Positions 20,574 through 64,000 of a stretch of DNA of 64,000 nucleotides are shown here, piece by piece (position 1 is the first letter of the stretch; every line of letters begins with the position of its first letter). The position numbers and the translations under genes are program-made. The DNA comes from Candidatus Omnitrophota bacterium (GTDB taxonomy: Bacteria; Omnitrophota; Gorgyraeia; JAHIPI01): assembly GCA_016783745.1 (NCBI GenBank), contig JADHVZ010000002.1, forward strand, positions 12,012 to 76,011. Reading direction: 5' to 3'. The notes beneath the pieces are model-generated. The model was not told the origin of the DNA and ran no database searches. It worked only from the letters and a program-made list of their open reading frames with translations.

Positions 20574-21644
20574 TTAAAGGCTTCCCTTTGCGTATTTCGC
20601 GAGCTCGCTCGGATCTGAAGACCGCGCGAAAGCGTCATCGTATGAAATAATGCCTTTTTTATAAAGCGTGGCAAGCGCCTGGTTCATCGTGCGCATGCCT
20701 TCCCTTTGCCCTGTCTGTATCTGAGAATATATCTGATGGACTTTAGATTCTCTTATCAGCGCCCTCACTGCGGGATTGGCGATAAGGATCTCATTCACCA
20801 GCACCCTGCCCGGCGGCGTTTTTTTGGGCACCAGAAGCTGCGCTATTATTCCTACTAACACAAAAGATAACTGCGTCCTTATCTGCTGCTGCTGATGTGA
20901 CGGAAACACATCTATGATCCTGTTTACGGTCTGCACGCTATCTGATGTATGCAGAGTAGCTAACACGAGGTGGCCTGTCTCCGCGATTATAAGCGCGGCC
21001 GCTATAGTCTCAAGGTCCCGCATTTCCCCTATGAGTATGACATCCGGATCCTGCCTCAAAACGTACTTAAGCGCCGCGCCAAAGGTATGGGTATCGTGAT
21101 GGACCTCTCTCTGGTCTATTATAGCTTTTTTATTTTTAAAAACAAATTCTATCGGGTCTTCGATGGTTATGATATGGCATTCCCGCTCATCATTGATAAA
21201 ATCGACCATTGCCGATAAGGTCGTGGATTTTCCTGTTCCGGTTGCCCCTGTTATCAGCACCAGCCCCTTAGGTTTACGGCATAACGCCTGCATTACGCCC
21301 ATGGGAAGGCCCGCTTCCTCAAAACCCATTACCTCAAACGGGATAAGCCTGATGGCTATGCCCACGTTTCCCCGCTGAAGGAATACATTGACTCTGAACC
21401 TGCAAAGGTGGCTTATCTCAAAAGAAAAATCGAGCTCTTTTTCCTTTTCGAATATCGCGATCTGTTCTTCTGTTAACATCCCGTAAGCTATTTTTTTCGT
21501 TTCTTCGGGCGTAAGTACCTTCTCGTCCGCGTTAACCAGCTTTTCATCGATCCTCATCTTCGGAGGATAGTTGGCGCCAATATGAAGGTCGGATGAATTT
21601 TTCTCTAACAGTTGCTTTAGGATGACGTTTATATCGATCGACAT
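20574..21644 (-). CDS. pilT: Twitching-motility retraction ATPase PilT
   Basis: 356 aa with Walker A GATGTGKST, the PilT AIRNLIRE-like motif (ALIRESKVHQI) and a short N-domain. Confidence 0.9.
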   Translation of the reverse strand: MSIDINVILKQLLEKNSSDLHIGANYPPKMRIDEKLVNADEKVLTPEETKKIAYGMLTEEQIAIFEKEKELDFSFEISHLCRFRVNVFLQRGNVGIAIRLIPFEVMGFEEAGLPMGVMQALCRKPKGLVLITGATGTGKSTTLSAMVDFINDERECHIITIEDPIEFVFKNKKAIIDQREVHHDTHTFGAALKYVLRQDPDVILIGEMRDLETIAAALIIAETGHLVLATLHTSDSVQTVNRIIDVFPSHQQQQIRTQLSFVLVGIIAQLLVPKKTPPGRVLVNEILIANPAVRALIRESKVHQIYSQIQTGQREGMRTMNQALATLYKKGIISYDDAFARSSDPSELAKYAKGSL

Positions 21645-21662: not shown

Positions 21663-23072
21663 TCAAATGATCTTATTTTTGCCCTGCGTTTTCGCGGCGG
21701 CAACCGAATCCGCGGCTTTCTTCTTGAGTGATTCCGAAGAAGAACCGTCTATGGGATTCTCGCTGACCCCGCCGCTTATTGTCAGGCGCCTTCCTGATCC
21801 GCTACCCAGTTCAATATTTTCAACAGTTTTTCTTACGGCCTCGGCTATTCTATAAGCCTCTTTTTTATTCTTCTCCGGAAGTAATAAAGCGAATTCATCT
21901 CCGGAAAGCCGCGCTGCCCTGCCTATTTGAGTGACATGCTCTTCTAGCACGGAGGCTATCATCTTAAGCGCCTTCTCCGTCACGAGCTCGCCGTTATCAC
22001 TTCTGAACTTATCGAATCCGTCGACATTAAACATGACATACGAACAAGGCCTCTGATAAAGGACACCTCTTTTGATCTCCTCACCAAGCCTTAAGGTGAC
22101 ATAGGCCTCGTTGTATAAGCCGGTGAGATCATCCTTTATGGCCAACTCCCTGGCCTTTCTGATAAGTATCTCTCTGTCATAAGCTATAGCGGCTTGTTTA
22201 GAGAAGATCTTCAGCACATCCATATCGTCGGAATTAAATGTATAGTCACTTTCCCTGCTTCCCGCGAGCATCATCCCGACCGCCTTACCGCGCGATATGA
22301 TGGGAAATGCGGCGAAGTTTTCAACGCCAACGTCTTCCATGAACATTTCCGTATCCTTCGAGCGCTTAGTGCCGGAATCGGCATATACAATAGCGCCTTT
22401 TAATAAAGCTTCCCCGAGTAAGTCTTTCCCGGGACGTATTTTGAGATCGCGAAGCTTTTCGTTTGTAAGATTATTCTCTACGGCCGATTCCAGGGTCCCG
22501 GCTTCGATAGGCCTCGGTAAATAGATCACCGCGTAACCCGCGTTCATAATCTCGACGGTCTTATCGGCTATAAGAGCCATAACGCCATCAAGGTCAGACG
22601 CCATGGAAATTTCTTCGCTTATTTGCAGCAAGCTGGATAAGGCAAGGACTTTTTTATGGATCTCTATATTTATCAATTTCGTCTTTTCCCCATACGAGTT
22701 AAGCTCATCCATGTCCCGCCTGATACGTGATGTCAGGCTGTTGATCGAACTCCCAAGCTCGCCTATCTCGTCTTCGGAAGATACGGAGATTCTGCGGTCG
22801 AACATCCCTCCGGCTATAAGTTTTGATTCTATCGCCATATCGATGACCGGCATTATAAGCTGCCGCGCCAGCACAAGGCCTAACAGAGCCAAGATGACAC
22901 TAAAGAAAAGGATCCACGATGTCTCTATTATATCTCCTGTGGGGGGAAATATCTTATCCCGGAGGAGGTAGGCTGCTACAAGCAAAGGTATCATTGCCAT
23001 AAGGCAAAAAGCAACCGTAAATTTGCGGCGTATCCCTTTTGGCGCCAGGGATAATTTTTTGAGAAGATCCAT
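21663..23072 (-). CDS. Membrane-anchored HAMP-GAF-GGDEF protein, a putative diguanylate cyclase with an SGDEF active-site variant
   Basis: 469 aa. An N-terminal TM pair is followed by a HAMP-like linker, a GAF domain and a C-terminal GGDEF domain (…DGFDKFRSDNGE…RLSGDEFALLLP). Confidence 0.85.
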   Translation of the reverse strand: MDLLKKLSLAPKGIRRKFTVAFCLMAMIPLLVAAYLLRDKIFPPTGDIIETSWILFFSVILALLGLVLARQLIMPVIDMAIESKLIAGGMFDRRISVSSEDEIGELGSSINSLTSRIRRDMDELNSYGEKTKLINIEIHKKVLALSSLLQISEEISMASDLDGVMALIADKTVEIMNAGYAVIYLPRPIEAGTLESAVENNLTNEKLRDLKIRPGKDLLGEALLKGAIVYADSGTKRSKDTEMFMEDVGVENFAAFPIISRGKAVGMMLAGSRESDYTFNSDDMDVLKIFSKQAAIAYDREILIRKARELAIKDDLTGLYNEAYVTLRLGEEIKRGVLYQRPCSYVMFNVDGFDKFRSDNGELVTEKALKMIASVLEEHVTQIGRAARLSGDEFALLLPEKNKKEAYRIAEAVRKTVENIELGSGSGRRLTISGGVSENPIDGSSSESLKKKAADSVAAAKTQGKNKII

Positions 23073-23179: not shown

Positions 23180-24277
23180 CTAAAAAACCGATCTGTGCAT
23201 ATCTACATTGATCACAAGTGCCAGAGATAACCATGTAGTTATAAGGCTTGACCCCCCATAGCTGATGAGAGGCAGGGGCAGTCCTACGACCGGCATAAAA
23301 CCGGCAGCCATTGCGATGTTGACTATGACCTGGAAGGATATCATCGCGGCTACGCCTGAGACGATAAGCCTGCCGTAAATATCGTTTGACCTGCTCGCGA
23401 CAGATAATATGCGGATTATAAGCAGACAGAAAAGCAGTATCACCAAAAAACTGCCCGCAAAGCCCCATTCCTCTCCTACTACGGAAAATATAAAATCAGT
23501 ATGGCGTTCCGGTAAAAAATTCAGCTGATTCTGAGTCCCGCTTGTCCACCCTTTTCCGAACAACCCTCCTGAGCCGATAGCGATCTTTGACTGGATCACA
23601 GTGTAACCTGCCCCCAGAGGATCCATATTGGGATTCATAAATACAAGCAGTCTTCTTTTTTGATAATCCTTTAAGAAATTCCAGAAAAGTGGTGACGCTA
23701 TGAGACCCGCCAATATCGTCCCAATAATAAACCTCATTGGCGTCTCCGAGCACAGCAAGATGGCAAATAGTATGGGCAGGAGCGCTATGGCGCTGCCAAG
23801 ATCCGGCTCCTTGAATATGAGCAGGCAGAAAAGGCCTGTTATGCCTAATGCCGCAAGAAATGTGCGTATGTCTCTTATGGAATGACGGTTATTGCCTAGA
23901 AAATATGACAATGTCAATATCATGGCGAGTTTAGCAAACTCGGATGGCTGGAATGTCAGCCATCCGAAGCTCAGCCATCTGCGCGCGCCCATCCTTGATC
24001 CACCGATAAAAAGTATCAGGATAAGCGCTAAAGCGATCAAGACGTAAAAAAGGTAAGACCAGTCAAGTATGCGGCGAAAATCTATATTGATGATGACGAC
24101 AAGCATCACAATGCTGACCGCCAGCCACGCAACCTGCCTGAACATGAAGTTGATCCCCTTTATCTCCCCCATGCCGCGTGAGGCGCTATAAAGAAAAAGA
24201 AGGCCTATTCCGAATATAAGTAACGGCAATATGATCAGAAAAGGGTCGAAGCCTCGTTTATAACTTATATTGTACAT
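23180..24277 (-). CDS. rodA: Rod shape-determining protein RodA (SEDS family)
   Basis: 365-aa polytopic FtsW/RodA/SpoVE protein. It lies immediately downstream of mrdA in the mreBCD-mrdA-rodA cluster. Confidence 0.9.
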   Translation of the reverse strand: MYNISYKRGFDPFLIILPLLIFGIGLLFLYSASRGMGEIKGINFMFRQVAWLAVSIVMLVVIINIDFRRILDWSYLFYVLIALALILILFIGGSRMGARRWLSFGWLTFQPSEFAKLAMILTLSYFLGNNRHSIRDIRTFLAALGITGLFCLLIFKEPDLGSAIALLPILFAILLCSETPMRFIIGTILAGLIASPLFWNFLKDYQKRRLLVFMNPNMDPLGAGYTVIQSKIAIGSGGLFGKGWTSGTQNQLNFLPERHTDFIFSVVGEEWGFAGSFLVILLFCLLIIRILSVASRSNDIYGRLIVSGVAAMISFQVIVNIAMAAGFMPVVGLPLPLISYGGSSLITTWLSLALVINVDMHRSVF

Positions 24278-55774: not shown

Positions 55775-55966
55775 ATTCCACTTCCCTCCACTTTACTCCA
55801 TTTCACAGCAAGTATACATCACTGCGCAGGCTTTTGTCAATAGCATAAAGGGACTTTATAAATAAAACTTAATAAGCTGCGGGGTAATAGGTTACGCTAA
55901 CACAATGTCTGGTATGGAGGGGTCGATAGGAATCTATATATAGTGGGCTTTAGTATATAGATATTA

Positions 55967-56383
55967 TTATTTATTATGGCTAATTTTATCCAAAAGAATA
56001 TTGATATCTTCGATGAGAGGCTTAAGGGTATCTCTTTTTCTCAGCTTCAGCTTTTTTATCTGATTCCTGGAGACTATTTGCCTCAATTCACTTTCCAGTC
56101 TTTCAATCGGCCCTACGAGATTGCGTGTCAGAACGAGGCCTATCCAAAATAAGATGACGAATACGACCGGTAAAGAAATCGCTAATGCCATGTTGACCTT
56201 TCTTAAGACAGGCAATAGGTGGTAGGCGATGATCTCGGGTATGCCAAGCTGTTCGGCCATGAGATTGAATATGACATAGTAAAGGCAGCAACCCGTTATC
56301 AAGGTAGGCAGCATAAGAGATAACGCGATCAGTATTAGATACCGGCGCTCAAGCTTGTTACGCACAAGGAAAAATTGTCTCAT
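55967..56383 (-). CDS. Small membrane protein with two TM helices and a HAMP-like cytoplasmic linker
   Basis: The start is better placed at MRQFFLV (the ATG at 56383 with an AAAGGAGG RBS) than at the ORF-track 56476. Two TM segments are followed by LVGPIERLESELRQI, an amphipathic HAMP-like helix. Confidence 0.55.
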   Translation of the reverse strand: MRQFFLVRNKLERRYLILIALSLMLPTLITGCCLYYVIFNLMAEQLGIPEIIAYHLLPVLRKVNMALAISLPVVFVILFWIGLVLTRNLVGPIERLESELRQIVSRNQIKKLKLRKRDTLKPLIEDINILLDKISHNK

Positions 56384-56399
56384 AACGGTCCTCCTTTGT

Positions 56400-57125
56400 T
56401 CATTTTTGCTCTTTATAAAAAACCTTGATATCGTCGAAAAACGCCTCGGCGCTGGAGCCCGTACTGTCTGAATCACACATAAAAGCTATCGCGCCGATCT
56501 TCGCCTTTGGTTTTGATTTAAACGCGAGGAGATAATCCACGTAAATATTTCTTTCCTCAGTAACCCATTTATCCTCCGCGGACGGCCCGGATTCCACTAC
56601 CATAAGTTTAATATTGTCGGAATACGGGCTGGAAGATATCTCACCCGCCTCGAGATCCCTGGCCCAGACATACTCCAGGACTTTGGTATTGGAAAAAAAG
56701 ATCGCCGGAAATATCACGTACACACGCGCCGCGAAATCATCCTCTTCCTGATTTAGAAGATCCTCCGGAAGCCTTTTGTCGGGAAAATCTCCGACGCGCC
56801 ATTTCCACGAGATAAAAGGCCTGCCCTTGACATCGAGATTCATCTTGTGATAGAGGGCTGAGCAGGAGCGCCTACTCATGGCGCGTACATATGACTCATC
56901 ATCTTTAGTCTCAATGGAATAGTCTACCCTCTTGTGTAATATTTTTTTATCCCACTCTTTAAGCGAGTCATCGGAAGAGAACGGAAAATACTTTATTACG
57001 TCTACTTTTTTTTCGGGAAAAATATGGGATGCGAGATCAAAGCGGATGGATATAAAAACAAGGAAGATTGCGAAAACGGTTATAACCACATATATCGTTA
57101 AGCGCTTATTTTTTTGTGCGCACAT
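56400..57125 (-). CDS. Membrane-anchored, probably periplasmic protein with weak resemblance to the DUF3047 family
   Basis: 241 aa with an N-terminal signal anchor and then a W-rich beta domain (WKWRVGDFP…AARVYVIF…). The family assignment is from memory only. It overlaps the upstream GGDEF-PilZ gene by 20 nt. Confidence 0.5.
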   Translation of the reverse strand: MCAQKNKRLTIYVVITVFAIFLVFISIRFDLASHIFPEKKVDVIKYFPFSSDDSLKEWDKKILHKRVDYSIETKDDESYVRAMSRRSCSALYHKMNLDVKGRPFISWKWRVGDFPDKRLPEDLLNQEEDDFAARVYVIFPAIFFSNTKVLEYVWARDLEAGEISSSPYSDNIKLMVVESGPSAEDKWVTEERNIYVDYLLAFKSKPKAKIGAIAFMCDSDSTGSSAEAFFDDIKVFYKEQK

Positions 57126-58944
57126 ATTCGTCTATGAGCTCTTTATCACTCTGGCTGATCCATATGAATGAAATGGCGACATTAAAACATTTTCCCCCGT
57201 CAGCCTCACAGCGTAAGACCTTTCCGATCGCCGCTATAAGCCTGTCAGAGGATGGTATCCTTATACGTAATTCAAGGAAGGATCCCATCGGCACTCTTTT
57301 ATTTGAAACAAATTTCACGCCGGTAGCGCTGATATTCTTTGAATAGCTGTCTTCTACCACATTATAGGCGGGTTTCAAGTCATCGGAAAGCCGCACATAA
57401 TCTACGGCGCAGTCTGTATGCAGCCGCATGTAAGTCCTGTTCTCCGGGCCTCTGTAATCGTCACTGTTGATCATTTTGTCTAACTCATTGGTATTGAGCG
57501 CCCATTCTCCGCCCTTGGCATAGACGATCTTATTGACAAACATACGCCTTATCAGCGACTCCACCCGCACGGGGATGCCGCTACAGGCGGCAAACATCTT
57601 CTTTTTAAAATCCTGAGATATTAACTCGCATGAAAACACAGCATCAAAGAATTCGGACACATCATTATCTTTGAGGGGTTTTAACTCCAAAACATCACAA
57701 GTCTTGGCAAGGTCATTTTCATTCATAAATATGGAAAAAGGTGTCCTTGGCGCCTGTTTTATATCTACCATGTCGTCGGAAATGCTGCCTGCGATAAGCA
57801 TCCCCCATTCTGTGCCGCGCTCTTTGATGGCCCCTTTTATTATTTCCAGGCTGCCGCTGTCTATCCAGATAATATCGTCGGCCAGCACAGGGATGATCTT
57901 TATCTTAAGCTCTTTCATAAATCGCAGAAAGGCGTTAACAATATCCTCGTCTTTCAGGTCTTCGGCCTTGGGAGATTTATGCCCTGAATATTTTACGGGA
58001 AGATCCCGTATCTTGCGCACCATCGAAAAAAGAGCCGCTTTATGGGCATCATCCAGCGAATTGAGCGCGTCTAATACTTTACCGGCATCCATAAACTCTA
58101 AAAAACTGCTGAAGGCGTCAGCTATAGATCCATACTTTTTATTGATATCTTCTCTGCTGCACATAAGAAGCAGGCTGGGATAGATCTTGTCCGGGCTGAA
58201 AAGCTCAAGCATAAATCTTGTCTTGCCTATACCCTGCGGGCCCTTGACAAGTACGAATTTTTTTGCTCCTTTTTCCGCGTCCTTATATGACGCCTGGATG
58301 TGCGCCAATTCCTTCTGCCTGTCGATAAACTTTTTGCACGGAAGGGCGTTGGCCAGCAAATCCCTGCCTCTGACCTCTGCCATAATGTCCTTCACTGTTG
58401 AGACCCTGTTCCTACCCGTCCTTTTTGAAGAATACAGAGCCTGGTCAGCCTTTTCCAGGAGGCCGCTGGCGCTATCGGCGTCATCGGGGTATACGGCGAG
58501 GCCCATACTCATCGTCACACTTATGTTCTTTGCCCCCCGCTTGTCCTCTACTTTATTATCCTTGATCAATTTCAATATTTTACCGGCTGTATCAACGGAC
58601 TCATCGAGCCCTTTATCAAAAAATACTAAGGTAAATTCATCGCCGGCGTATCTGACTATGGTAGCTTCCTCACCGATGACGCTCCTTAAAATATCCGCGA
58701 TGTTCACAAGCACTTTATCGCCGCTGAGATGACCATAGGAATCGTTGATTTTTTTCAGGTTGTCACAGTCCATCATGAAGATAGAGATGCTTTTGTTTTC
58801 ATTTTTTGCCCTTGAGATCTCCCTTATGAGGACCTTATTGAGGTACCGCCTGTTGAACAAGCTGGTTAGATCATCGACGTAAGCCAGATCTACACTCTGC
58901 GGCTTGCTTTCCGCGCCGGTCCCTTTATGATTTTCTTCTGGCAT
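57106..58944 (-). CDS. Multidomain c-di-GMP signalling protein: degenerate GGDEF (AGDEF), a P-loop STAND/AAA-like NTPase, and a C-terminal PilZ
   Basis: The N-terminal GGDEF domain (DDLTSLFNRRYL…DCDNLKKINDSYGHLSGD…RYAGDEFTLVF) is followed by Walker A LVKGPQGIGKTRF and Walker B-like IIPVLADDIIWID. The C-terminus carries the PilZ motifs RTYMR and NISATG (RxxxR … D/NxSxxG). Confidence 0.75.
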   Translation of the reverse strand: MPEENHKGTGAESKPQSVDLAYVDDLTSLFNRRYLNKVLIREISRAKNENKSISIFMMDCDNLKKINDSYGHLSGDKVLVNIADILRSVIGEEATIVRYAGDEFTLVFFDKGLDESVDTAGKILKLIKDNKVEDKRGAKNISVTMSMGLAVYPDDADSASGLLEKADQALYSSKRTGRNRVSTVKDIMAEVRGRDLLANALPCKKFIDRQKELAHIQASYKDAEKGAKKFVLVKGPQGIGKTRFMLELFSPDKIYPSLLLMCSREDINKKYGSIADAFSSFLEFMDAGKVLDALNSLDDAHKAALFSMVRKIRDLPVKYSGHKSPKAEDLKDEDIVNAFLRFMKELKIKIIPVLADDIIWIDSGSLEIIKGAIKERGTEWGMLIAGSISDDMVDIKQAPRTPFSIFMNENDLAKTCDVLELKPLKDNDVSEFFDAVFSCELISQDFKKKMFAACSGIPVRVESLIRRMFVNKIVYAKGGEWALNTNELDKMINSDDYRGPENRTYMRLHTDCAVDYVRLSDDLKPAYNVVEDSYSKNISATGVKFVSNKRVPMGSFLELRIRIPSSDRLIAAIGKVLRCEADGGKCFNVAISFIWISQSDKELIDEYVRTKK

Positions 58945-58965: not shown

Positions 58966-59400
58966 TTACCTGCCTGGCTTCGCCCTGACACAGGAAGCGG
59001 CTTCTCTCAGGGTAAGATTTATTTTTTTTGAATTGAATTTACCGTCACTTACGGCCGTAAACGCGATCGCGTGTGTATTGGAATGAGTGAGGCTCAAGGC
59101 TATATTAAAACAAGACACATTTTTGAATTTTTTCTTGTCTAAACATATTTCAGGCTGTTCGTTACTTCCCTTTTTAACCTCTATGTCAGCGTAGAATGGC
59201 CTCGCGATATTGTTTAAGGCCTTGATGGTCGCTTCCTTGGCGGCAAATCTGGCGGCAAACCTGGGATATGGATCCCTGAAAGACCTGCAATATTTTATTT
59301 CCTGCGGGGTAAATATCTTTTTGTAAAATCTCTTGTTCCTGCCGTAAGATAATCGCCTGAATCTGGATATCTGCTCACAGTCTACGCCGACCTGTAACAT
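58966..59400 (-). CDS. acpS: Holo-[acyl-carrier-protein] synthase (4'-phosphopantetheinyl transferase)
   Basis: The start is better placed at MLQVGVDCEQISRF (the ATG at 59400). The motifs GVDxxxIxRF and FAAKEATIKAL are present. The longer ORF-track frame would run into the RNase P RNA gene. Confidence 0.8.
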   Translation of the reverse strand: MLQVGVDCEQISRFRRLSYGRNKRFYKKIFTPQEIKYCRSFRDPYPRFAARFAAKEATIKALNNIARPFYADIEVKKGSNEQPEICLDKKKFKNVSCFNIALSLTHSNTHAIAFTAVSDGKFNSKKINLTLREAASCVRAKPGR

Positions 59401-59420: not shown

Positions 59421-59838
59421 GTGGGTTTAAACAAGCTGACCTGTAAGCCGAGTTCTGTGCGCAGGCCCTAAGCCTGCCGGTAATCATTTCTCTTGCCCCA
59501 TCATTACTGATGAGGTCATAAGCGACCTTACCCGTCCCGACACCGTTGACTCTCCGTGCCTACGGCCCGGAGAAGTCTTCGACTCCACTACTTTATCGGT
59601 GAGTCTTATCCGGTAGAAGCGAGCAGCTTCTGATTCGGGACCTATTTGGTCTTGCTCCGCGTAGAGATTGCTCGTTTCACCCGCCTACGCTTGAGGCGTA
59701 GGCGACTCGTCTCTGTAGCTCTGATCCTATCCTTCCGGATGGCGGGCATTACCCGCTACGCCGCTCATCGGAGCTCGGACTTTCCTCCCTATCTTTTTTT
59801 AAAGAAAGAGCGATTACCCGATCTGCTTGTTTAAACCC
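59421..59838 (-). ncRNA. rnpB: RNase P RNA, bacterial type A
   Basis: The minus-strand RNA carries GGAAAGUCCGAGCUCC (CR-I), GGGUGAAAcGAG, and ACAGAACUCGGCUUACAGG (CR-IV/V). The P1 helix is formed by GGGUUUAAACAAGC (5' end at about 59838) pairing with GCUUGUUUAAACCC (3' end at about 59423). The length is about 416 nt. Confidence 0.8.
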
Positions 59839-61219: not shown

Positions 61220-61296
61220 TGGTGGGCGGTAGAGGACTTGAACCTCTGACCTCGTGCATGTGAGGCACGCGCTCTAACCAGCTGAGCTAACCGCCC
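61220..61296 (-). tRNA. tRNA-Val (anticodon CAC), CCA encoded
   Basis: The minus-strand sequence is GGGCGGTTAGCTCAGCTGGTTAGAGCGCGTGCCTCACATGCACGAGGTCAGAGGTTCAAGTCCTCTACCGCCCACCA. It folds as a cloverleaf with the anticodon loop CUCACAU. Confidence 0.9.
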
Positions 61297-61397: not shown

Positions 61398-61568
61398 TTA
61401 CTGTTTTCCATTTTTACGCAAGGCTTCGCGGGCTGACATGTGTATCAGTTTGTCATTTTGCCAAATCGCAAGGGAACGACCCGTTTCTTTATGTCTTTTG
61501 ATAACCTCGCGTATCGCTTCTTTAAGCGCCTTAAAAGCCTTGTCATGTAAAGACTGCCTTTTTCTCAC
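61398..61568 (-). CDS. Hypothetical small protein (56 aa), translationally coupled to the upstream zeta-like gene
   Basis: The GTG start at 61568 overlaps the upstream TGA stop as GTGA. The sequence is VRKRQSLHDKAFKALKEAIREVIKRHKETGRSLAIWQNDKLIHMSAREALRKNGKQ, basic and helical. There is no ATG. Confidence 0.35.
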   Translation of the reverse strand: MRKRQSLHDKAFKALKEAIREVIKRHKETGRSLAIWQNDKLIHMSAREALRKNGKQ

Positions 61569-62146
61569 AACCTTCTCCCTTTTTCTGTAATTTTCTCAAA
61601 TAAATATTTATCAAAGACTGCAACCTTTCCATTTTTTTCCTCAGCAATCAATTTAGGAACAATGCTCTCGTTATTGAATAACATCCACGAATCCAGCAAT
61701 GGCATGTAAAACCTAAAAAAGTTAATACTGCTACGGATAAACCGACGACGCACATCTTGCAACGGAACATCATGCCCGCCATCAGCGACTCTGTCCTTGA
61801 TTCGCGCTAAAGCCAATTGCACATTCGGAATCCATAAAAAGAAAAGATGTAGATGATATCCCTTTCTTCTTAAATGCTTAAAAAGTTTAATGTATGATTT
61901 CCCTGCAAGTGTTGTTTCAAAAGCAAAATCAACGTTTTTGCCTGCCATTTCATAAATTTGCTTTAAAACGAGCCTTCCGGCTTTCATCGCAGCGATTCGC
62001 GGAGAAAAGGGAGATAACCCTTGAGCAATAAGATCGGCATTAATAAAATGCTGACATTTTGCATAGTCGGGTAAAAACTTCTTTGCAAATGTAGTTTTAC
62101 CTGATCCGTTAGGCCCGGCTATTATATAGATATTTTTATTCTTCAT
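61565..62146 (-). CDS. Zeta-toxin-like P-loop kinase / ATPase (COG4185-like)
   Basis: 193 aa with Walker A IIAGPNGSGKTT and the motifs INADLIA and FAFETTLAG, typical of the zeta-toxin/UNAG-kinase fold. Confidence 0.7.
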   Translation of the reverse strand: MKNKNIYIIAGPNGSGKTTFAKKFLPDYAKCQHFINADLIAQGLSPFSPRIAAMKAGRLVLKQIYEMAGKNVDFAFETTLAGKSYIKLFKHLRRKGYHLHLFFLWIPNVQLALARIKDRVADGGHDVPLQDVRRRFIRSSINFFRFYMPLLDSWMLFNNESIVPKLIAEEKNGKVAVFDKYLFEKITEKGRRL

Positions 62147-62349
62147 ATTTTCAAATATTTATGACTTCGTGCTTTTAATTTTGTCAAAATTCGTGGTGGC
62201 CAGGCCTGCTGTCTCAGGGCGTCATTTTATGGGACACTGCAAGGCTCAAAATGAGCACCACCCTCAAGGGACACACAACAATTAGCCTTTTAGACCGCGC
62301 AATTGAGCTAACTGAAACCCATTTGGGTACACCTACAGGCTAGACCTTA

Positions 62350-62688
62350 TTATTTAGTGCTTTTTAGGATGCGCGATACATGCTTTTTGAAAATGGGTAA
62401 TTTATTTTCTATAATATCCCATAAAATGTCTACATCTATGCCGAAGTATTCATGCGCCAAAATATTCCTCAGCCCTGCTATTTTTTTCCATTCGATTTCT
62501 GAATATTTTTCTTTTATGCTGGTTGGGATATTCTTCGCGGCTTCTCCGATAATCTCCAGATTACGCACAACGCCGTCAATCACTAGGTTATTCGTCTTAA
62601 GCTTTTCAAGAGATAATCTATCGGTATATTCTTCGATCCGGCGAAGCGCTTCCAGAATATCATCTATGTAAAGTCTGTGATCACGCAT
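62350..62688 (-). CDS. hepT: HepT-family toxin (DUF86, RNase)
   Basis: 112 aa with the Rx4HxY motif RNILAHEY. It overlaps the upstream mntA by 8 nt. Confidence 0.85.
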   Translation of the reverse strand: MRDHRLYIDDILEALRRIEEYTDRLSLEKLKTNNLVIDGVVRNLEIIGEAAKNIPTSIKEKYSEIEWKKIAGLRNILAHEYFGIDVDILWDIIENKLPIFKKHVSRILKSTK

Positions 62689-62974
62689 ATTTCACATCCG
62701 AAAGAACTTCTCTTTTTATCCTCGCCTTCAAGGCATCTTTTATTACCAGATCAACCTTGTGACGAAAGAGACTTTCCAGATAAAACTTAAGCTCCATATA
62801 ATTATCAAATGTCTTGCTATTCTTATCAAACTCAACGAGAATGTCTATATCGCTTTTGGCATGTTGGCTCGAGCGCACAAAAGAGCCAAAGATGCCTACT
62901 TTTTTCACGCCGTAAGCCTTTAGCTCATCTGAATGCTGCTTCATTGTCTTTAGTATTTTATTTTTGGGTGACAT
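62681..62974 (-). CDS. mntA: MntA-family nucleotidyltransferase antitoxin
   Basis: It has the GSx10DxD motif GSFVRSSQHAKSDIDIL. The start is better placed at MSPKNKIL (62974) than at the ORF-track 63004. Confidence 0.85.
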   Translation of the reverse strand: MSPKNKILKTMKQHSDELKAYGVKKVGIFGSFVRSSQHAKSDIDILVEFDKNSKTFDNYMELKFYLESLFRHKVDLVIKDALKARIKREVLSDVKYA

Positions 62975-63122
62975 ATTTATTCCTCTTTCTGAACAATGGT
63001 TCAATTTTTTTCAAATGACATTGATCCCATATAAGATTACATCCTTCTTGCCTTTGGTATATCTTAAGTCTCTGACTATCGTTAATTATCCAGAAACAAG
63101 AAAATTGCTATCAAAAAATTCA

Positions 63123-63199
63123 TGGTGGGCCCGCCTGGACTTGAACCAGGAACCCTCTGATTATGAGTCAGATGCTCTAACCAATTGAGCTACGAGCCC
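63123..63199 (-). tRNA. tRNA with a CAU anticodon (elongator tRNA-Met or lysidine-modified tRNA-Ile2), CCA encoded
   Basis: The minus-strand sequence is GGGCTCGTAGCTCAATTGGTTAGAGCATCTGACTCATAATCAGAGGGTTCCTGGTTCAAGTCCAGGCGGGCCCACCA. Positions 1 and 72 pair and the anticodon stem lacks three G-C pairs, so it is not an initiator. Confidence 0.85.
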
Positions 63200-63379: not shown

Positions 63380-64000
63380 TTAGTCTTTCGCGACGTATTC
63401 AAACCAGTCAAAAAAAGCAGGCGTAGTGCTCTTCTTCCCGTTTCCCGTTGCATACATACCCAGGTACACGCCGGTCCATCCTCCGGCGACTTCCGTAGAC
63501 AAATATCTCGTTTGCGCCTGAGCCGCTGCCTTGAACTCCCTGCCATCCAGGGAGTAAGAGAAGTGGTATGTATCGCGATCCGCGGTTATTCTCAGACTTA
63601 CGGGCCCGCTGTCAATTTTATCATAGTCCATTCTGGTGACAAGACCGCCTACGCGCCTGCTTACCACAATAAGCCTCTCGCCTTCAATACACTTAACAGC
63701 AAGCTCATAATGATGCCTTTCGTTCATATACACCGCAAGGCCGGCTTCTTCATTTTCGCGCGAGGGCGAAAAATCCATAAGTGTTGTCGCTGTAAGGCAA
63801 AAATGCTCCTGCCTGCGTCCCAGAAAAGCCGGTGAGTCAGTATCGTTAAGCGATACCTCTGATCCGGATAATCTCAACCAGCCCGGACGCTCAGAGGTCG
63901 AGTAATGTTCATCACGCGGATTCCTCAAAAAATTCCACTCAAGCCCCCAGCCTCCGCCATCAAAGTCGTCTCTTGCAGGCGCATCATCCCATTTATGAAT
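63380..64000 (-). CDS. C-terminal beta-sandwich domain of a GH43-like glycoside hydrolase (xylosidase/arabinofuranosidase-like). The 5' part lies beyond the window edge.
   Basis: The frame is open to position 64000 (…IHKWDDAPARDDFDGGGWGLEWNFLRNPRDEHY…), and the C-terminus ends AFFDWFEY, typical of the GH43 C-terminal domain. Confidence 0.55.
   Translation of the reverse strand: MHKWDDAPARDDFDGGGWGLEWNFLRNPRDEHYSTSERPGWLRLSGSEVSLNDTDSPAFLGRRQEHFCLTATTLMDFSPSRENEEAGLAVYMNERHHYELAVKCIEGERLIVVSRRVGGLVTRMDYDKIDSGPVSLRITADRDTYHFSYSLDGREFKAAAQAQTRYLSTEVAGGWTGVYLGMYATGNGKKSTTPAFFDWFEYVAKD

What the first reader, a model, noticed from the sequence alone, without database searches (positions are those of the whole stretch)
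55967..58944. Operon encoding a GGDEF*(AGDEF)-NTPase-PilZ fusion, a DUF3047-like periplasmic protein and a HAMP membrane protein: a putative novel c-di-GMP effector system
The 612-aa protein combines a GGDEF domain with a degenerate active site (RYAGDEF, probably inactive or a receptor), a central P-loop NTPase (GPQGIGKT Walker A and hhhhDD Walker B, STAND/AAA_16-like), and a bona fide PilZ domain (RTYMR … NISATG). This potentially gives it two c-di-GMP-binding modules flanking an NTPase switch. Two genes follow with 20-nt and 17-nt overlaps or spacers, which implies co-translation. One is a signal-anchored W-rich beta protein (DUF3047-like) and the other a 2-TM HAMP-like protein. The architecture suggests a c-di-GMP-gated ATPase that signals to or through the envelope. 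I am not aware of a characterised system with this domain order.
Basis: partly seen in the sequence, partly recalled or inferred. Interest (0 to 1): 0.7.

Follow-up and report, generated by a model that had tools for sequence, protein, structure and literature searches.

The report
STAND-type diguanylate cyclase fused to PilZ
An uncultured Omnitrophota bacterium encodes a rare, shortened c-di-GMP synthase in which an NTPase switch is fused to a c-di-GMP receptor domain, next to a widely conserved two-gene envelope module of unknown function; this is a new variant of known signalling parts, not a new kind of system.

Summary
On the minus strand lie a 612-aa GGDEF–AAA_16–PilZ protein, a 241-aa DUF3047 protein and a 138-aa 2TM-HAMP protein. 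They are tightly packed behind acpS and ahead of the mraZ promoter.

The "degenerate" RYAGDEF is not decay. It is the family signature of STAND-coupled GGDEF proteins (33 of 36 diverse representatives). All other catalytic residues are intact, and AGDEF is a proven active site in V. cholerae VCA0965. The RxxD I-site is absent, so the GGDEF domain is not a second c-di-GMP receptor.

Close relatives are 820–1300-aa GGDEF–STAND–HEAT proteins with a separate 131–133-aa PilZ gene immediately downstream. The window protein has lost the HEAT arm and fused to PilZ. Only six such proteins turned up among 5.8 billion.

DUF3047+HAMP is an independent, Omnitrophota-wide gene pair (77 of 77 informative loci), usually next to lpxA. 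Only 3 of 80 species-level loci also carry the cyclase.

Best reading: an oligomerisation-gated active cyclase whose PilZ domain senses its own product, recently placed beside an envelope module. Any coupling between the two is unproven. It is a new variant of a known kind, of moderate interest.

The parts
57106..58944 (-). g1: 612-aa GGDEF(AGDEF)-STAND NTPase-PilZ protein
   Evidence: ORF. Pfam GGDEF, AAA_16 and PilZ all above gathering score. Identical to an NCBI Omnitrophica MAG protein annotated 'diguanylate cyclase'.
58405..58884 (-). GGDEF domain (residues 21-180)
   Evidence: Pfam E 1.9e-41; TIGR00254 E 1.5e-42. Aligns along its whole length with the active cyclases DosC and GacA.
58633..58647 (-). 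AGDEF signature (A100-F104). The I-site-equivalent position, GEEA, lies at 58663..58674.
   Evidence: AGDEF is conserved in 33 of 36 GGDEF-STAND representatives. There is no RxxD.
57466..58365 (-). STAND-type nucleotide-binding oligomerisation domain (residues ~194-493). Walker A at 58219..58242, Walker B at 57874..57891, GIP/winged-helix motif at 57559..57582.
57109..57438 (-). PilZ domain (residues 503-612). RTYMR at 57424..57438, NISATG at 57319..57336.
   Evidence: Pfam PilZ E 2.4e-8. A profile of the clade hits MotI/YpfA 5vx6 at E 4.5e-8 with both motifs aligned. Both motifs are conserved in the fused and the stand-alone copies.
56400..57125 (-). g2: membrane-anchored periplasmic DUF3047 protein (TM about residues 9-31; beta-sandwich 57-233)
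55967..56383 (-). g3: 138-aa 2TM protein with a conserved 25-residue outer loop (AEQLGIPE...) and a C-terminal HAMP domain, with no output domain
   Evidence: ATG with AAGGAGG RBS. Alignment A2. HAMP in 16 of 30 orthologues. Directly downstream of DUF3047 in 77 of 77 informative loci.
58966..59400 (-). acpS (holo-ACP synthase), probable first protein gene of the same transcription unit
   Evidence: Pfam ACPS. Gaps or overlaps to g1 of 1-56 nt in seven loci.
55811..55840 (-). Promoter-like site TTGACA-18-TATACT upstream of mraZ, which marks the downstream boundary of the unit
   Evidence: 11 of 12 match. MraZ confirmed by Pfam.

Best explanation
g1 is a compact member of a large, uncharacterised family of diguanylate cyclases. 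In this family a GGDEF domain with a family-typical RYAGDEF signature is the N-terminal effector of a STAND (AAA_16) NTPase.

The long relatives carry a HEAT/TPR sensor arm. In the closest sister lineages a separate small PilZ protein is encoded immediately downstream. In the window lineage a deletion removed the arm and fused PilZ directly to the winged-helix end of the NTPase module.

Inferred mechanism: nucleotide-dependent oligomerisation of the NTPase module brings GGDEF domains together, which catalysis requires, and c-di-GMP is made. The PilZ domain has intact RxxxR and NxSxxG motifs and binds the product in cis. It replaces the missing RxxD I-site as the feedback or gating element, and perhaps also serves as an output adaptor.

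g2 and g3 are a separate, ancient, Omnitrophota-wide envelope module: a periplasmic lectin-like beta-sandwich plus a HAMP stub without an output domain. The cyclase was placed in front of this module in one clade. Co-translation there makes a coupling between the PilZ/NTPase part and the HAMP plausible, but it is not shown.
For: Shown:
- Domain matches.
- Catalytic residues: D in MMDCD, N in KIND, D in GDKVL, R98, D102-E103 and KRTGRN all align with the active cyclases DosC and GacA.
- AGDEF is active in VCA0965 (PMC3974145).
- RYAGDEF is present in every clade member (36-65% identical) and in 33 of 36 representatives from the exhaustive search. That is purifying selection, not decay.
- The NTPase module is STAND-like by fold. 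Its relatives are AAA_16 proteins with GGDEF, kinase or cyclase N-termini and HEAT/TPR C-termini.
- Split and fused forms both occur. PilZ is a separate gene right after the long GGDEF-STAND-HEAT gene in L005, L009, L011, L090-92 and L095-97. It is fused in the window, L001-L004 and L007.
- None of the 11 PilZ-linked members has RxxD, against about half of the rest of the family.
- The PilZ motifs align with c-di-GMP-binding MotI.
- DUF3047+g3 are adjacent in 77 of 77 informative loci across varied contexts.
- The g1/g2 overlap of 17-20 nt is conserved in the window, L001 and L002.

Established knowledge:
- GGDEF domains must dimerise to act (abstract of PMC7825114).
- STANDs switch from an ADP-bound closed monomer to an ATP-bound multimer when the sensor is triggered (abstract of PMC6468293).
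Against: - No biochemistry exists for any GGDEF-AAA_16 protein in the searchable literature.
- The sensor-1 arginine after Walker B is replaced in this clade and in many AGDEF-STAND-HEAT members. The NTPase may bind nucleotide without hydrolysing it.
- AGDEF activity is extrapolated from a single enzyme.
- The PilZ part of the AF2 model has low confidence (pLDDT 30-60).
- The absence of RxxD in PilZ-linked members may be a single phylogenetic event.
- The g3 HAMP sequence shows no clade-specific changes that would indicate adaptation to g1.
- L008 keeps the pair in the same locus without g1.
Confidence: 0.55

Rival explanations
1. The AGDEF domain is catalytically dead and acts as a second c-di-GMP receptor. 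g1 is a c-di-GMP-gated ATPase, and the three genes form one dedicated effector machine that signals through the envelope.
For: - The first Gly of the GGDEF signature is replaced.
- The genes overlap or nearly abut.
- The three-gene order is conserved in L001-L005 and L007.
Against: - All other catalytic residues are intact.
- AGDEF is a conserved family signature and is active in VCA0965.
- There is no RxxD I-site, and this is the known way GGDEF domains bind c-di-GMP as receptors.
- DUF3047+g3 is independent of g1 in 74 of 77 informative loci.
- GGDEF-STAND-HEAT+PilZ occurs without DUF3047.
Confidence: 0.12
2. Neighbours only. g1 is a self-contained cyclase-receptor with no functional link to g2-g3. 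Its position reflects insertion of the GGDEF-STAND+PilZ module into a permissive site of a housekeeping operon between acpS and the DUF3047 pair.
For: - The pair is autonomous and keeps the same sequence features with or without g1.
- L008 has acpS-DUF3047-g3-mraZ without g1.
- The sister module is followed by unrelated genes elsewhere: an AMP-binding enzyme in L095/L096 and a convergent gene in L091.
Against: - The 17-20-nt g1/g2 overlap is conserved in three lineages.
- In the split forms, PilZ abuts DUF3047 with a 6-nt gap in L005.
- The HAMP stub has no output domain of its own and so needs some cytoplasmic partner.
Confidence: 0.3
3. A conflict or defence system: a STAND NTPase with a nucleotide-signal-generating effector, like Avs/NLR-type antiphage proteins.
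For: - The STAND fold resembles Avs3, Avs5 and NLRs.
- Cyclase- and GGDEF-bearing NTPase conflict systems have been described (PMC7159879).
Against: - No PADLOC hit for any of the three proteins.
- The genes sit in a conserved housekeeping locus (rnpB-acpS ... mraZ-dcw) with stable synteny across genomes.
- No mobile-element signature lies next to them.
Confidence: 0.03
4. The AGDEF domain makes a product other than c-di-GMP, for example cGAMP as Hypr GGDEFs do.
For: The best PDB match is the Hypr GGDEF enzyme GacA, 6d9m (the identification of 6d9m as GacA is from my own knowledge). The conserved Ala could alter the active-site loop.
Against: - The specificity position is Asp (GDKVL), as in c-di-GMP-specific PleD. 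Hypr enzymes have Ser/Thr there (alignment: GSQVL in 6d9m).
- The partner domain is PilZ, a dedicated c-di-GMP receptor.
Confidence: 0.05

Closest known systems
VCA0965 of Vibrio cholerae (AGDEF diguanylate cyclase; PMC3974145)
   Same: AGDEF in place of GGDEF, with an otherwise intact active site. It makes c-di-GMP in vivo and in vitro.
   Different: VCA0965 has an RxxD I-site and no STAND or PilZ domain. In the present family AGDEF is a signature of the whole family, not a one-off.
STAND ATPases with repeat sensors (MalT, PH0952; mechanism summarised in PMC6468293) and class III cyclase-AAA_16-TPR proteins such as M. tuberculosis Rv0386 (own knowledge)
   Different: - The effector is GGDEF.
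- The repeat sensor arm is deleted and replaced by PilZ.
- The sensor-1 Arg is missing.
Long GGDEF(AGDEF)-AAA_16-HEAT proteins with an adjacent stand-alone PilZ gene (uncharacterised; L005, L009, L011, L090-92, L095-97)
   Same: Direct homologues (37-48% identity), with the same AGDEF, no RxxD, and the same PilZ with the same motifs.
   Different: They are two genes and carry a 300-800-aa HEAT-like arm. The window protein is the fused, arm-less derivative.
PilZ receptors MotI/YpfA (5vx6) and YcgR, and the PilZ fusions to GGDEF/EAL/HD-GYP listed by Amikam & Galperin 2006 (cited in 10.1101/814665)
   Same: Canonical PilZ with RxxxR and (D/N)xSxxG. Fusion of PilZ to c-di-GMP enzymes is a known theme.
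   Different: No described architecture has a STAND NTPase between GGDEF and PilZ. None was found in the literature searches.
LapD-LapG and YfiBNR (own knowledge)
   Same: A HAMP-containing inner-membrane protein links cytoplasmic c-di-GMP chemistry to a periplasmic partner protein.
   Different: - Here the HAMP protein has no GGDEF/EAL output and the receptor is on a separate polypeptide.
- DUF3047 is unrelated to LapG and YfiR.
- The coupling is hypothetical.
Af1503 of Archaeoglobus fulgidus, a 2TM receptor ending in a HAMP domain without an output domain (own knowledge)
   Same: The same 2TM + HAMP topology, with nothing after the HAMP.
   Different: g3 has only a ~25-residue outer loop and is always paired with a DUF3047 gene.

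Membership tests
GGDEF diguanylate cyclase (PF00990 / TIGR00254) | Domain HMM above the curated threshold | tested here: met
   142 bits against 23.8; 145 bits against 37.4
GGDEF diguanylate cyclase (PF00990 / TIGR00254) | GG(D/E)EF signature | tested here: not met
   The motif is AGDEF, with A100. The substitution is tolerated in VCA0965 and is the rule in this sub-family.
GGDEF diguanylate cyclase (PF00990 / TIGR00254) | Metal-, guanine- and phosphate-binding residues (PleD D327, N335, D344, K442, R446 equivalents) | tested here: met
   MMDCD, KIND, GDKVL and KRTGRN align with DosC and GacA
GGDEF diguanylate cyclase (PF00990 / TIGR00254) | RxxD allosteric I-site five residues before the signature | tested here: not met
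   GEEA at residues 91-94. Absent in all 11 PilZ-linked members.
GGDEF diguanylate cyclase (PF00990 / TIGR00254) | Synthesis of c-di-GMP from GTP | not testable with these tools
   Needs an enzyme assay
Hypr GGDEF (cGAMP synthase) | Ser/Thr at the PleD-D344 specificity position | tested here: not met
   Asp in GDKVL, against Ser in 6d9m GSQVL
STAND NTPase (AAA_16, MalT-like) | Walker A GxxxxGK[ST] and Walker B hhhhDD | tested here: met
   GPQGIGKT at 235-242 and PVLADD at 352-357. Both conserved in the family.
STAND NTPase (AAA_16, MalT-like) | P-loop, helical and winged-helix module with a STAND-like fold | tested here: met
STAND NTPase (AAA_16, MalT-like) | Sensor-1 arginine after Walker B | tested here: not met
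   LIAGSISDD, where relatives have YR(D/E)xE. Also lost in many AGDEF-STAND-HEAT members.
STAND NTPase (AAA_16, MalT-like) | C-terminal repeat (TPR/HEAT/WD40) sensor arm | tested here: not met
   Absent. PilZ follows the winged helix directly. The arm is present in relatives.
PilZ c-di-GMP receptor (PF07238) | Domain HMM above threshold | tested here: met
   34.7 bits against 22.5. A clade profile hits MotI 5vx6 at E 4.5e-8.
PilZ c-di-GMP receptor (PF07238) | RxxxR and (D/N)xSxxG binding motifs | tested here: met
   RTYMR at 503-507 and NISATG at 537-542. Conserved in the fused and the stand-alone copies.
PilZ c-di-GMP receptor (PF07238) | c-di-GMP binding | not testable with these tools
   Needs DRaCALA or ITC
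DUF3047 (PF11249) | Domain HMM above threshold | tested here: met
   145 bits against 27. The fold is a ConA-like beta-sandwich.
HAMP (PF00672) | Domain HMM above threshold, located after TM2 | tested here: inconclusive
   The window protein scores 15.2 bits against 25. 16 of 30 orthologues match, best E 3e-8. The GP..R start and the 2TM topology are conserved.
LapD-type inside-out c-di-GMP receptor | HAMP fused to degenerate GGDEF-EAL that binds c-di-GMP, with a periplasmic domain that binds a LapG-type protease | tested here: not met
   g3 ends after the HAMP. There is no EAL anywhere in the unit. DUF3047 is a lectin-like sandwich, not a protease.
Known antiphage defence systems (PADLOC-DB) | Match to any defence-protein model | tested here: not met
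   No hits at E <= 0.01 for g1, g2 or g3

The most novel reading that the evidence does not exclude
There are two linked claims.

First, the DUF3047/HAMP-stub pair is a phylum-wide outer-envelope (possibly LPS/lipid A-linked) sensor. Its HAMP has no output domain and signals by docking to soluble partners. In this clade it docks to the PilZ end of a STAND-type cyclase. The result would be a split, modular transmembrane c-di-GMP relay, working either outside-in or inside-out like LapD.

Second, AGDEF-STAND cyclases with their dedicated small receptor partners would be an unrecognised class of oligomerisation-gated 'local' c-di-GMP signalling hubs.
Probability: 0.2. Interest if true: 0.7.

Novelty: new variant of a known kind. 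Interest (0 to 1): 0.42.

Why it matters
If the model holds, the locus gives three testable points for c-di-GMP biology.

1. A large, unstudied family of cyclases is controlled by a STAND NTPase switch rather than by the usual REC, PAS or GAF inputs. Its conserved AGDEF signature challenges the habit of scoring such proteins as "degenerate".
2. The split and fused forms show that a PilZ receptor is the dedicated partner of this cyclase. That points to hard-wired local signalling, or to PilZ taking over the I-site's feedback role.
3. DUF3047 plus a HAMP stub is a nearly invariant gene pair in Omnitrophota, usually next to lpxA and an outer-membrane barrel gene. This gives DUF3047 its first contextual lead.

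Omnitrophota are largely uncultured, so all tests would have to be done heterologously.

Tried and rejected
- **Defence system:** PADLOC gave no hits. Rejected.
- **Hypr/cGAMP synthase:** suggested by the best PDB hit, 6d9m. Rejected because the specificity residue is Asp.
- **DUF3047 linked to c-di-GMP in general:** tblastn of the GGDEF and PilZ segments against 86 loci found the cyclase only in the acpS/mraZ clade. The small gene most often just upstream (cluster c16) is a TM protein, not PilZ. DUF3047 genes on proteobacterial and Fusobacteria plasmids have no GGDEF or HAMP neighbours.
- **A different receptor partner elsewhere:** a 1387-aa AGDEF-STAND-HEAT protein is followed by a stand-alone MshEN protein. 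Both of its RLG motifs lack the essential Arg, so I treat this only as a lead.
- **A 558-aa "arm-less, PilZ-less" form (P0007):** the reading frame continues in another frame like the long form. It is probably a frameshifted long form.
- **Sequence searches of PDB:** the DUF3047 profile and the single PilZ sequence found nothing. Only the PilZ profile worked.
- **Literature:** nothing on DUF3047 function. Nothing on GGDEF-AAA_16, GGDEF-PilZ with an NTPase, or c-di-GMP signalling in Omnitrophota.
- **afdb50 fold library:** unavailable.
- **AF2 of the PilZ part:** low confidence with only 11 sequences, so I draw no conclusion on how the domains pack.
Full report
**1. Observation.**
The minus strand carries three close-packed ORFs.
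- g1: 57106..58944, 612 aa.
- g2: 56400..57125, 241 aa.
- g3: listed mechanically as 55967..56476. The ATG at 56383 is preceded by AAGGAGG, so the likely product is 138 aa.

g1 and g2 overlap by 20 nt. g2 and g3 are 16 nt apart.

Pfam places three domains in g1, all above the curated cut-offs: GGDEF (21-180, E 1.9e-41), AAA_16 (206-375, E 7.9e-10) and PilZ (524-608, E 2.4e-8). It places DUF3047 in g2 (E 2.1e-42). For g3 it gives only a sub-threshold HAMP match (E 0.028). NCBIfam agrees for GGDEF.

acpS ends 21 nt upstream of g1. It is itself preceded by the RNase P RNA gene at 59428..59829. Downstream of g3 there is an 11-of-12 sigma-70-like promoter, followed by mraZ-rsmH-ftsL-ftsI. The unit is therefore most likely acpS-g1-g2-g3. 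The protein is identical to one annotated "diguanylate cyclase" in a Candidatus Omnitrophica MAG.

**2. Is the GGDEF domain dead?**
The evidence says no.
- The alignment with the active cyclases DosC and GacA is gap-free across the catalytic core. The metal-binding Asp (MMDCD), the guanine-binding Asn and Asp (KIND, GDKVL), R98, D102-E103 and the KRxGRN phosphate-binding residues are all kept. Only the first Gly of the signature is changed, to Ala.
- That same AGDEF motif supports c-di-GMP synthesis in vivo and in vitro in V. cholerae VCA0965 (PMC3974145).
- RYAGDEF is invariant in all clade members, which are only 36-65% identical overall.
- An exhaustive HMMER search of 1.84 billion cluster representatives with the NTPase-PilZ part returned 36 GGDEF-STAND proteins. 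Of these, 33 read RYAGDEF and only 3 read RYGGDEF.

A substitution kept across so divergent a family is a signature under selection, not decay.

The guanine-specificity position is Asp, so this is not a Hypr (cGAMP) enzyme, even though the best PDB hit is 6d9m.

The RxxD I-site position reads GEEA. The GGDEF domain therefore lacks the known site through which such domains bind c-di-GMP, and the idea of "two c-di-GMP-binding modules" is not supported.

**3. The NTPase.**
Walker A and Walker B (hhhhDD) are conserved. An AF2 model of residues 194-612 is confident over the NTPase part (pLDDT 80-93). It shows a P-loop alpha/beta domain, a helical domain and a winged helix.

Pfam scanning of 38 of the relatives found gave these counts:
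- AAA_16: 38
- GGDEF: 23
- HEAT_2: 19
- TPR_12: 10
- Pkinase: 7
- Guanylate_cyc: 3

This is the classic STAND layout of effector, oligomerisation module and repeat sensor.

One caveat applies. The sensor-1 Arg (YRxxE) is replaced in this clade and in many AGDEF-STAND-HEAT members, so hydrolysis may be impaired.

**4. PilZ, and the split and fused forms.**
The PilZ domain has both c-di-GMP-binding motifs (RTYMR, NISATG). A profile of the clade's PilZ sequences hits B. subtilis MotI/YpfA (5vx6) at E 4.5e-8, with both motifs aligned.

Full-length GGDEF-NTPase-PilZ proteins are extremely rare.
- The word-indexed search of 5.8 billion proteins found six: P0001-P0005 and P0241.
- In the exhaustive representative search, only one representative matched NTPase plus PilZ as a single stretch.

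The nearest relatives are long proteins followed immediately by a separate 131-133-aa PilZ gene with the same motifs.
- L005 has an 823-aa protein. L009 and L011 have 1216- and 1300-aa proteins.
- More distant stand-alone PilZ homologues also sit directly behind GGDEF-AAA_16-HEAT genes: P0247 (37% identical) and P0245 (45% identical).

In the fused form, the sequence passes from the winged helix (…GGEWALNTNELDKM) straight into what is the N-terminus of the stand-alone PilZ (…Y(K/R)GPE(R/N)RTYMRL). A single deletion therefore removed the arm and the intergenic region.

None of the 11 PilZ-linked members has RxxD, while about half of the remaining family does. This fits PilZ taking over product sensing. 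Because these members form one clade, it may also be a single evolutionary event.

**5. g2 and g3 form a separate module.**
A scan of one genome per GTDB species with a DUF3047 alignment returned 80 loci. All are Omnitrophota, although some records are titled Planctomycetia.

In every one of the 77 loci with enough downstream DNA, a g3 homologue follows DUF3047 on the same strand. The surrounding genes vary.
- The commonest arrangement is an Alginate_exp-like outer-membrane barrel, sometimes a small TM protein, then DUF3047, g3, lpxA, and further on a HEAT protein and an M48 peptidase. lpxA is present in 41 loci and the barrel in 39.
- Several loci have quite different contexts.

Only L007, L009 and L011 among the 80 have the GGDEF-NTPase gene. 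L008 has acpS-DUF3047-g3-mraZ without it.

Conversely, the GGDEF-STAND-HEAT+PilZ pair occurs without DUF3047. It is followed by an AMP-binding enzyme in L095/L096 and by a convergent gene in L091.

Two independent two-gene modules have therefore been juxtaposed in one clade.

**6. What g2 and g3 look like.**

*g3.* It has a basic N-terminus, two TM helices, a ~25-residue outer loop with the highly conserved motif AEQLGIPExIAxNLxPV, and a C-terminal HAMP beginning at the invariant GP..R. HAMP is detected in 16 of 30 orthologues. Nothing follows the HAMP.

The HAMP region shows no changes specific to the g1-bearing clade. This argues that its usual partner is not g1.

Both acpS (this clade) and lpxA (most other loci) act on acyl-ACP and lipid A chemistry. 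That hints at an outer-membrane role, but it is association only.

**7. Mechanism.**

*Shown:* the domain identities, the intact catalytic and binding motifs, the STAND fold, the split and fused PilZ forms, and the independence of the DUF3047-HAMP pair.

*From established knowledge:*
- GGDEF domains act only as dimers (abstract of PMC7825114).
- STANDs convert from closed ADP-bound monomers to ATP-bound multimers when their sensor is triggered (abstract of PMC6468293).

*Inferred:*
- NTP-dependent oligomerisation of g1 assembles active GGDEF pairs.
- PilZ occupies the sensor position and binds the product, so it gates the switch. The sign of the feedback is unknown. It may also pass the signal on.
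- Because g1 and g2 are translationally coupled in three lineages, and the HAMP stub needs a cytoplasmic partner, a contact between the PilZ/NTPase part and the HAMP is plausible. I put it at about 0.35-0.4.

**8. Comparison and novelty.**
Each part belongs to a known family. PilZ fusions to GGDEF have been listed since 2006 (10.1101/814665). Cyclase-STAND-repeat proteins are a known architectural class.

The new points are these:
- the arm-less GGDEF-STAND-PilZ fusion;
- AGDEF as the hallmark of STAND-coupled GGDEF proteins;
- the dedicated PilZ partner gene;
- the invariant DUF3047-HAMP pair.

I found no paper on any of them. It is not a defence system by PADLOC.

**Verdict.** This is a new variant of a known kind, with interest about 0.4.

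Noticed in passing
window 21663..23072 (-): A second cyclase-type protein: TM-HAMP-GAF-GGDEF with an SGDEF signature (RLSGDEF). It lies between a PilT-like T2SSE ATPase (20574..21644) and an FtsW/RodA gene (23180..24277). Its HAMP region is weakly similar to that of g3 orthologues.
   Followed up: partly
window 59428..59829 (-): RNase P RNA class A (210 bits), directly upstream of acpS. It overlaps the 5' end of the mechanically listed acpS ORF, so the real acpS start is near 59400.
   Followed up: partly
window 61565..63004 (-): A HepT/MNT (HEPN-nucleotidyltransferase) toxin-antitoxin pair at 62350..63004 and a Zeta-toxin-like P-loop protein at 61565..62146. They are flanked by tRNA genes at 61223..61296 and 63126..63199. 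G+C is lower here (0.39-0.41).
   Followed up: no
window 63380..63928 (-): An ORF consisting only of the C-terminal ConA-like domain of GH43 beta-xylosidases (GH43_C2, E 1.5e-59). It is possibly truncated or a remnant. L001 has a full GH43 gene in the equivalent region.
   Followed up: no
L099/L100 5001..9637: A 1387-aa AGDEF-AAA_16-HEAT protein sits inside a type II secretion/type IV pilus-like cluster with MshEN-T2SSE ATPases. After a 2-nt gap comes a 156-aa stand-alone MshEN-domain protein whose two RLG motifs lack the Arg (LLG, FLG).
   Followed up: partly
L013, L016, L022 and about 40 other loci (e.g. L013 3477..7192): In most Omnitrophota the DUF3047-HAMP pair lies between an Alginate_exp-like outer-membrane barrel gene and lpxA. 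A HEAT-repeat protein and an M48 peptidase often lie further downstream.
   Followed up: partly
L078 80..5464 and L079 26..5569; L078 6657..8057 (-): In two loci the pair is preceded by a giant ORF of about 1800 aa. It is followed, on the opposite strand, by a 466-aa PilZ-PilT-like ATPase.
   Followed up: no
L006 2100..2375: P0007 (558 aa) appears to be cut short by a frameshift. Another frame continues with sequence like the long GGDEF-STAND-HEAT proteins.
   Followed up: partly
record titles (L007, L009, L013 and others): Many MAG records that carry this Omnitrophota-type locus are titled 'uncultured Planctomycetia bacterium'. This is probably a taxonomic label inherited from an automated pipeline.
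   Followed up: no
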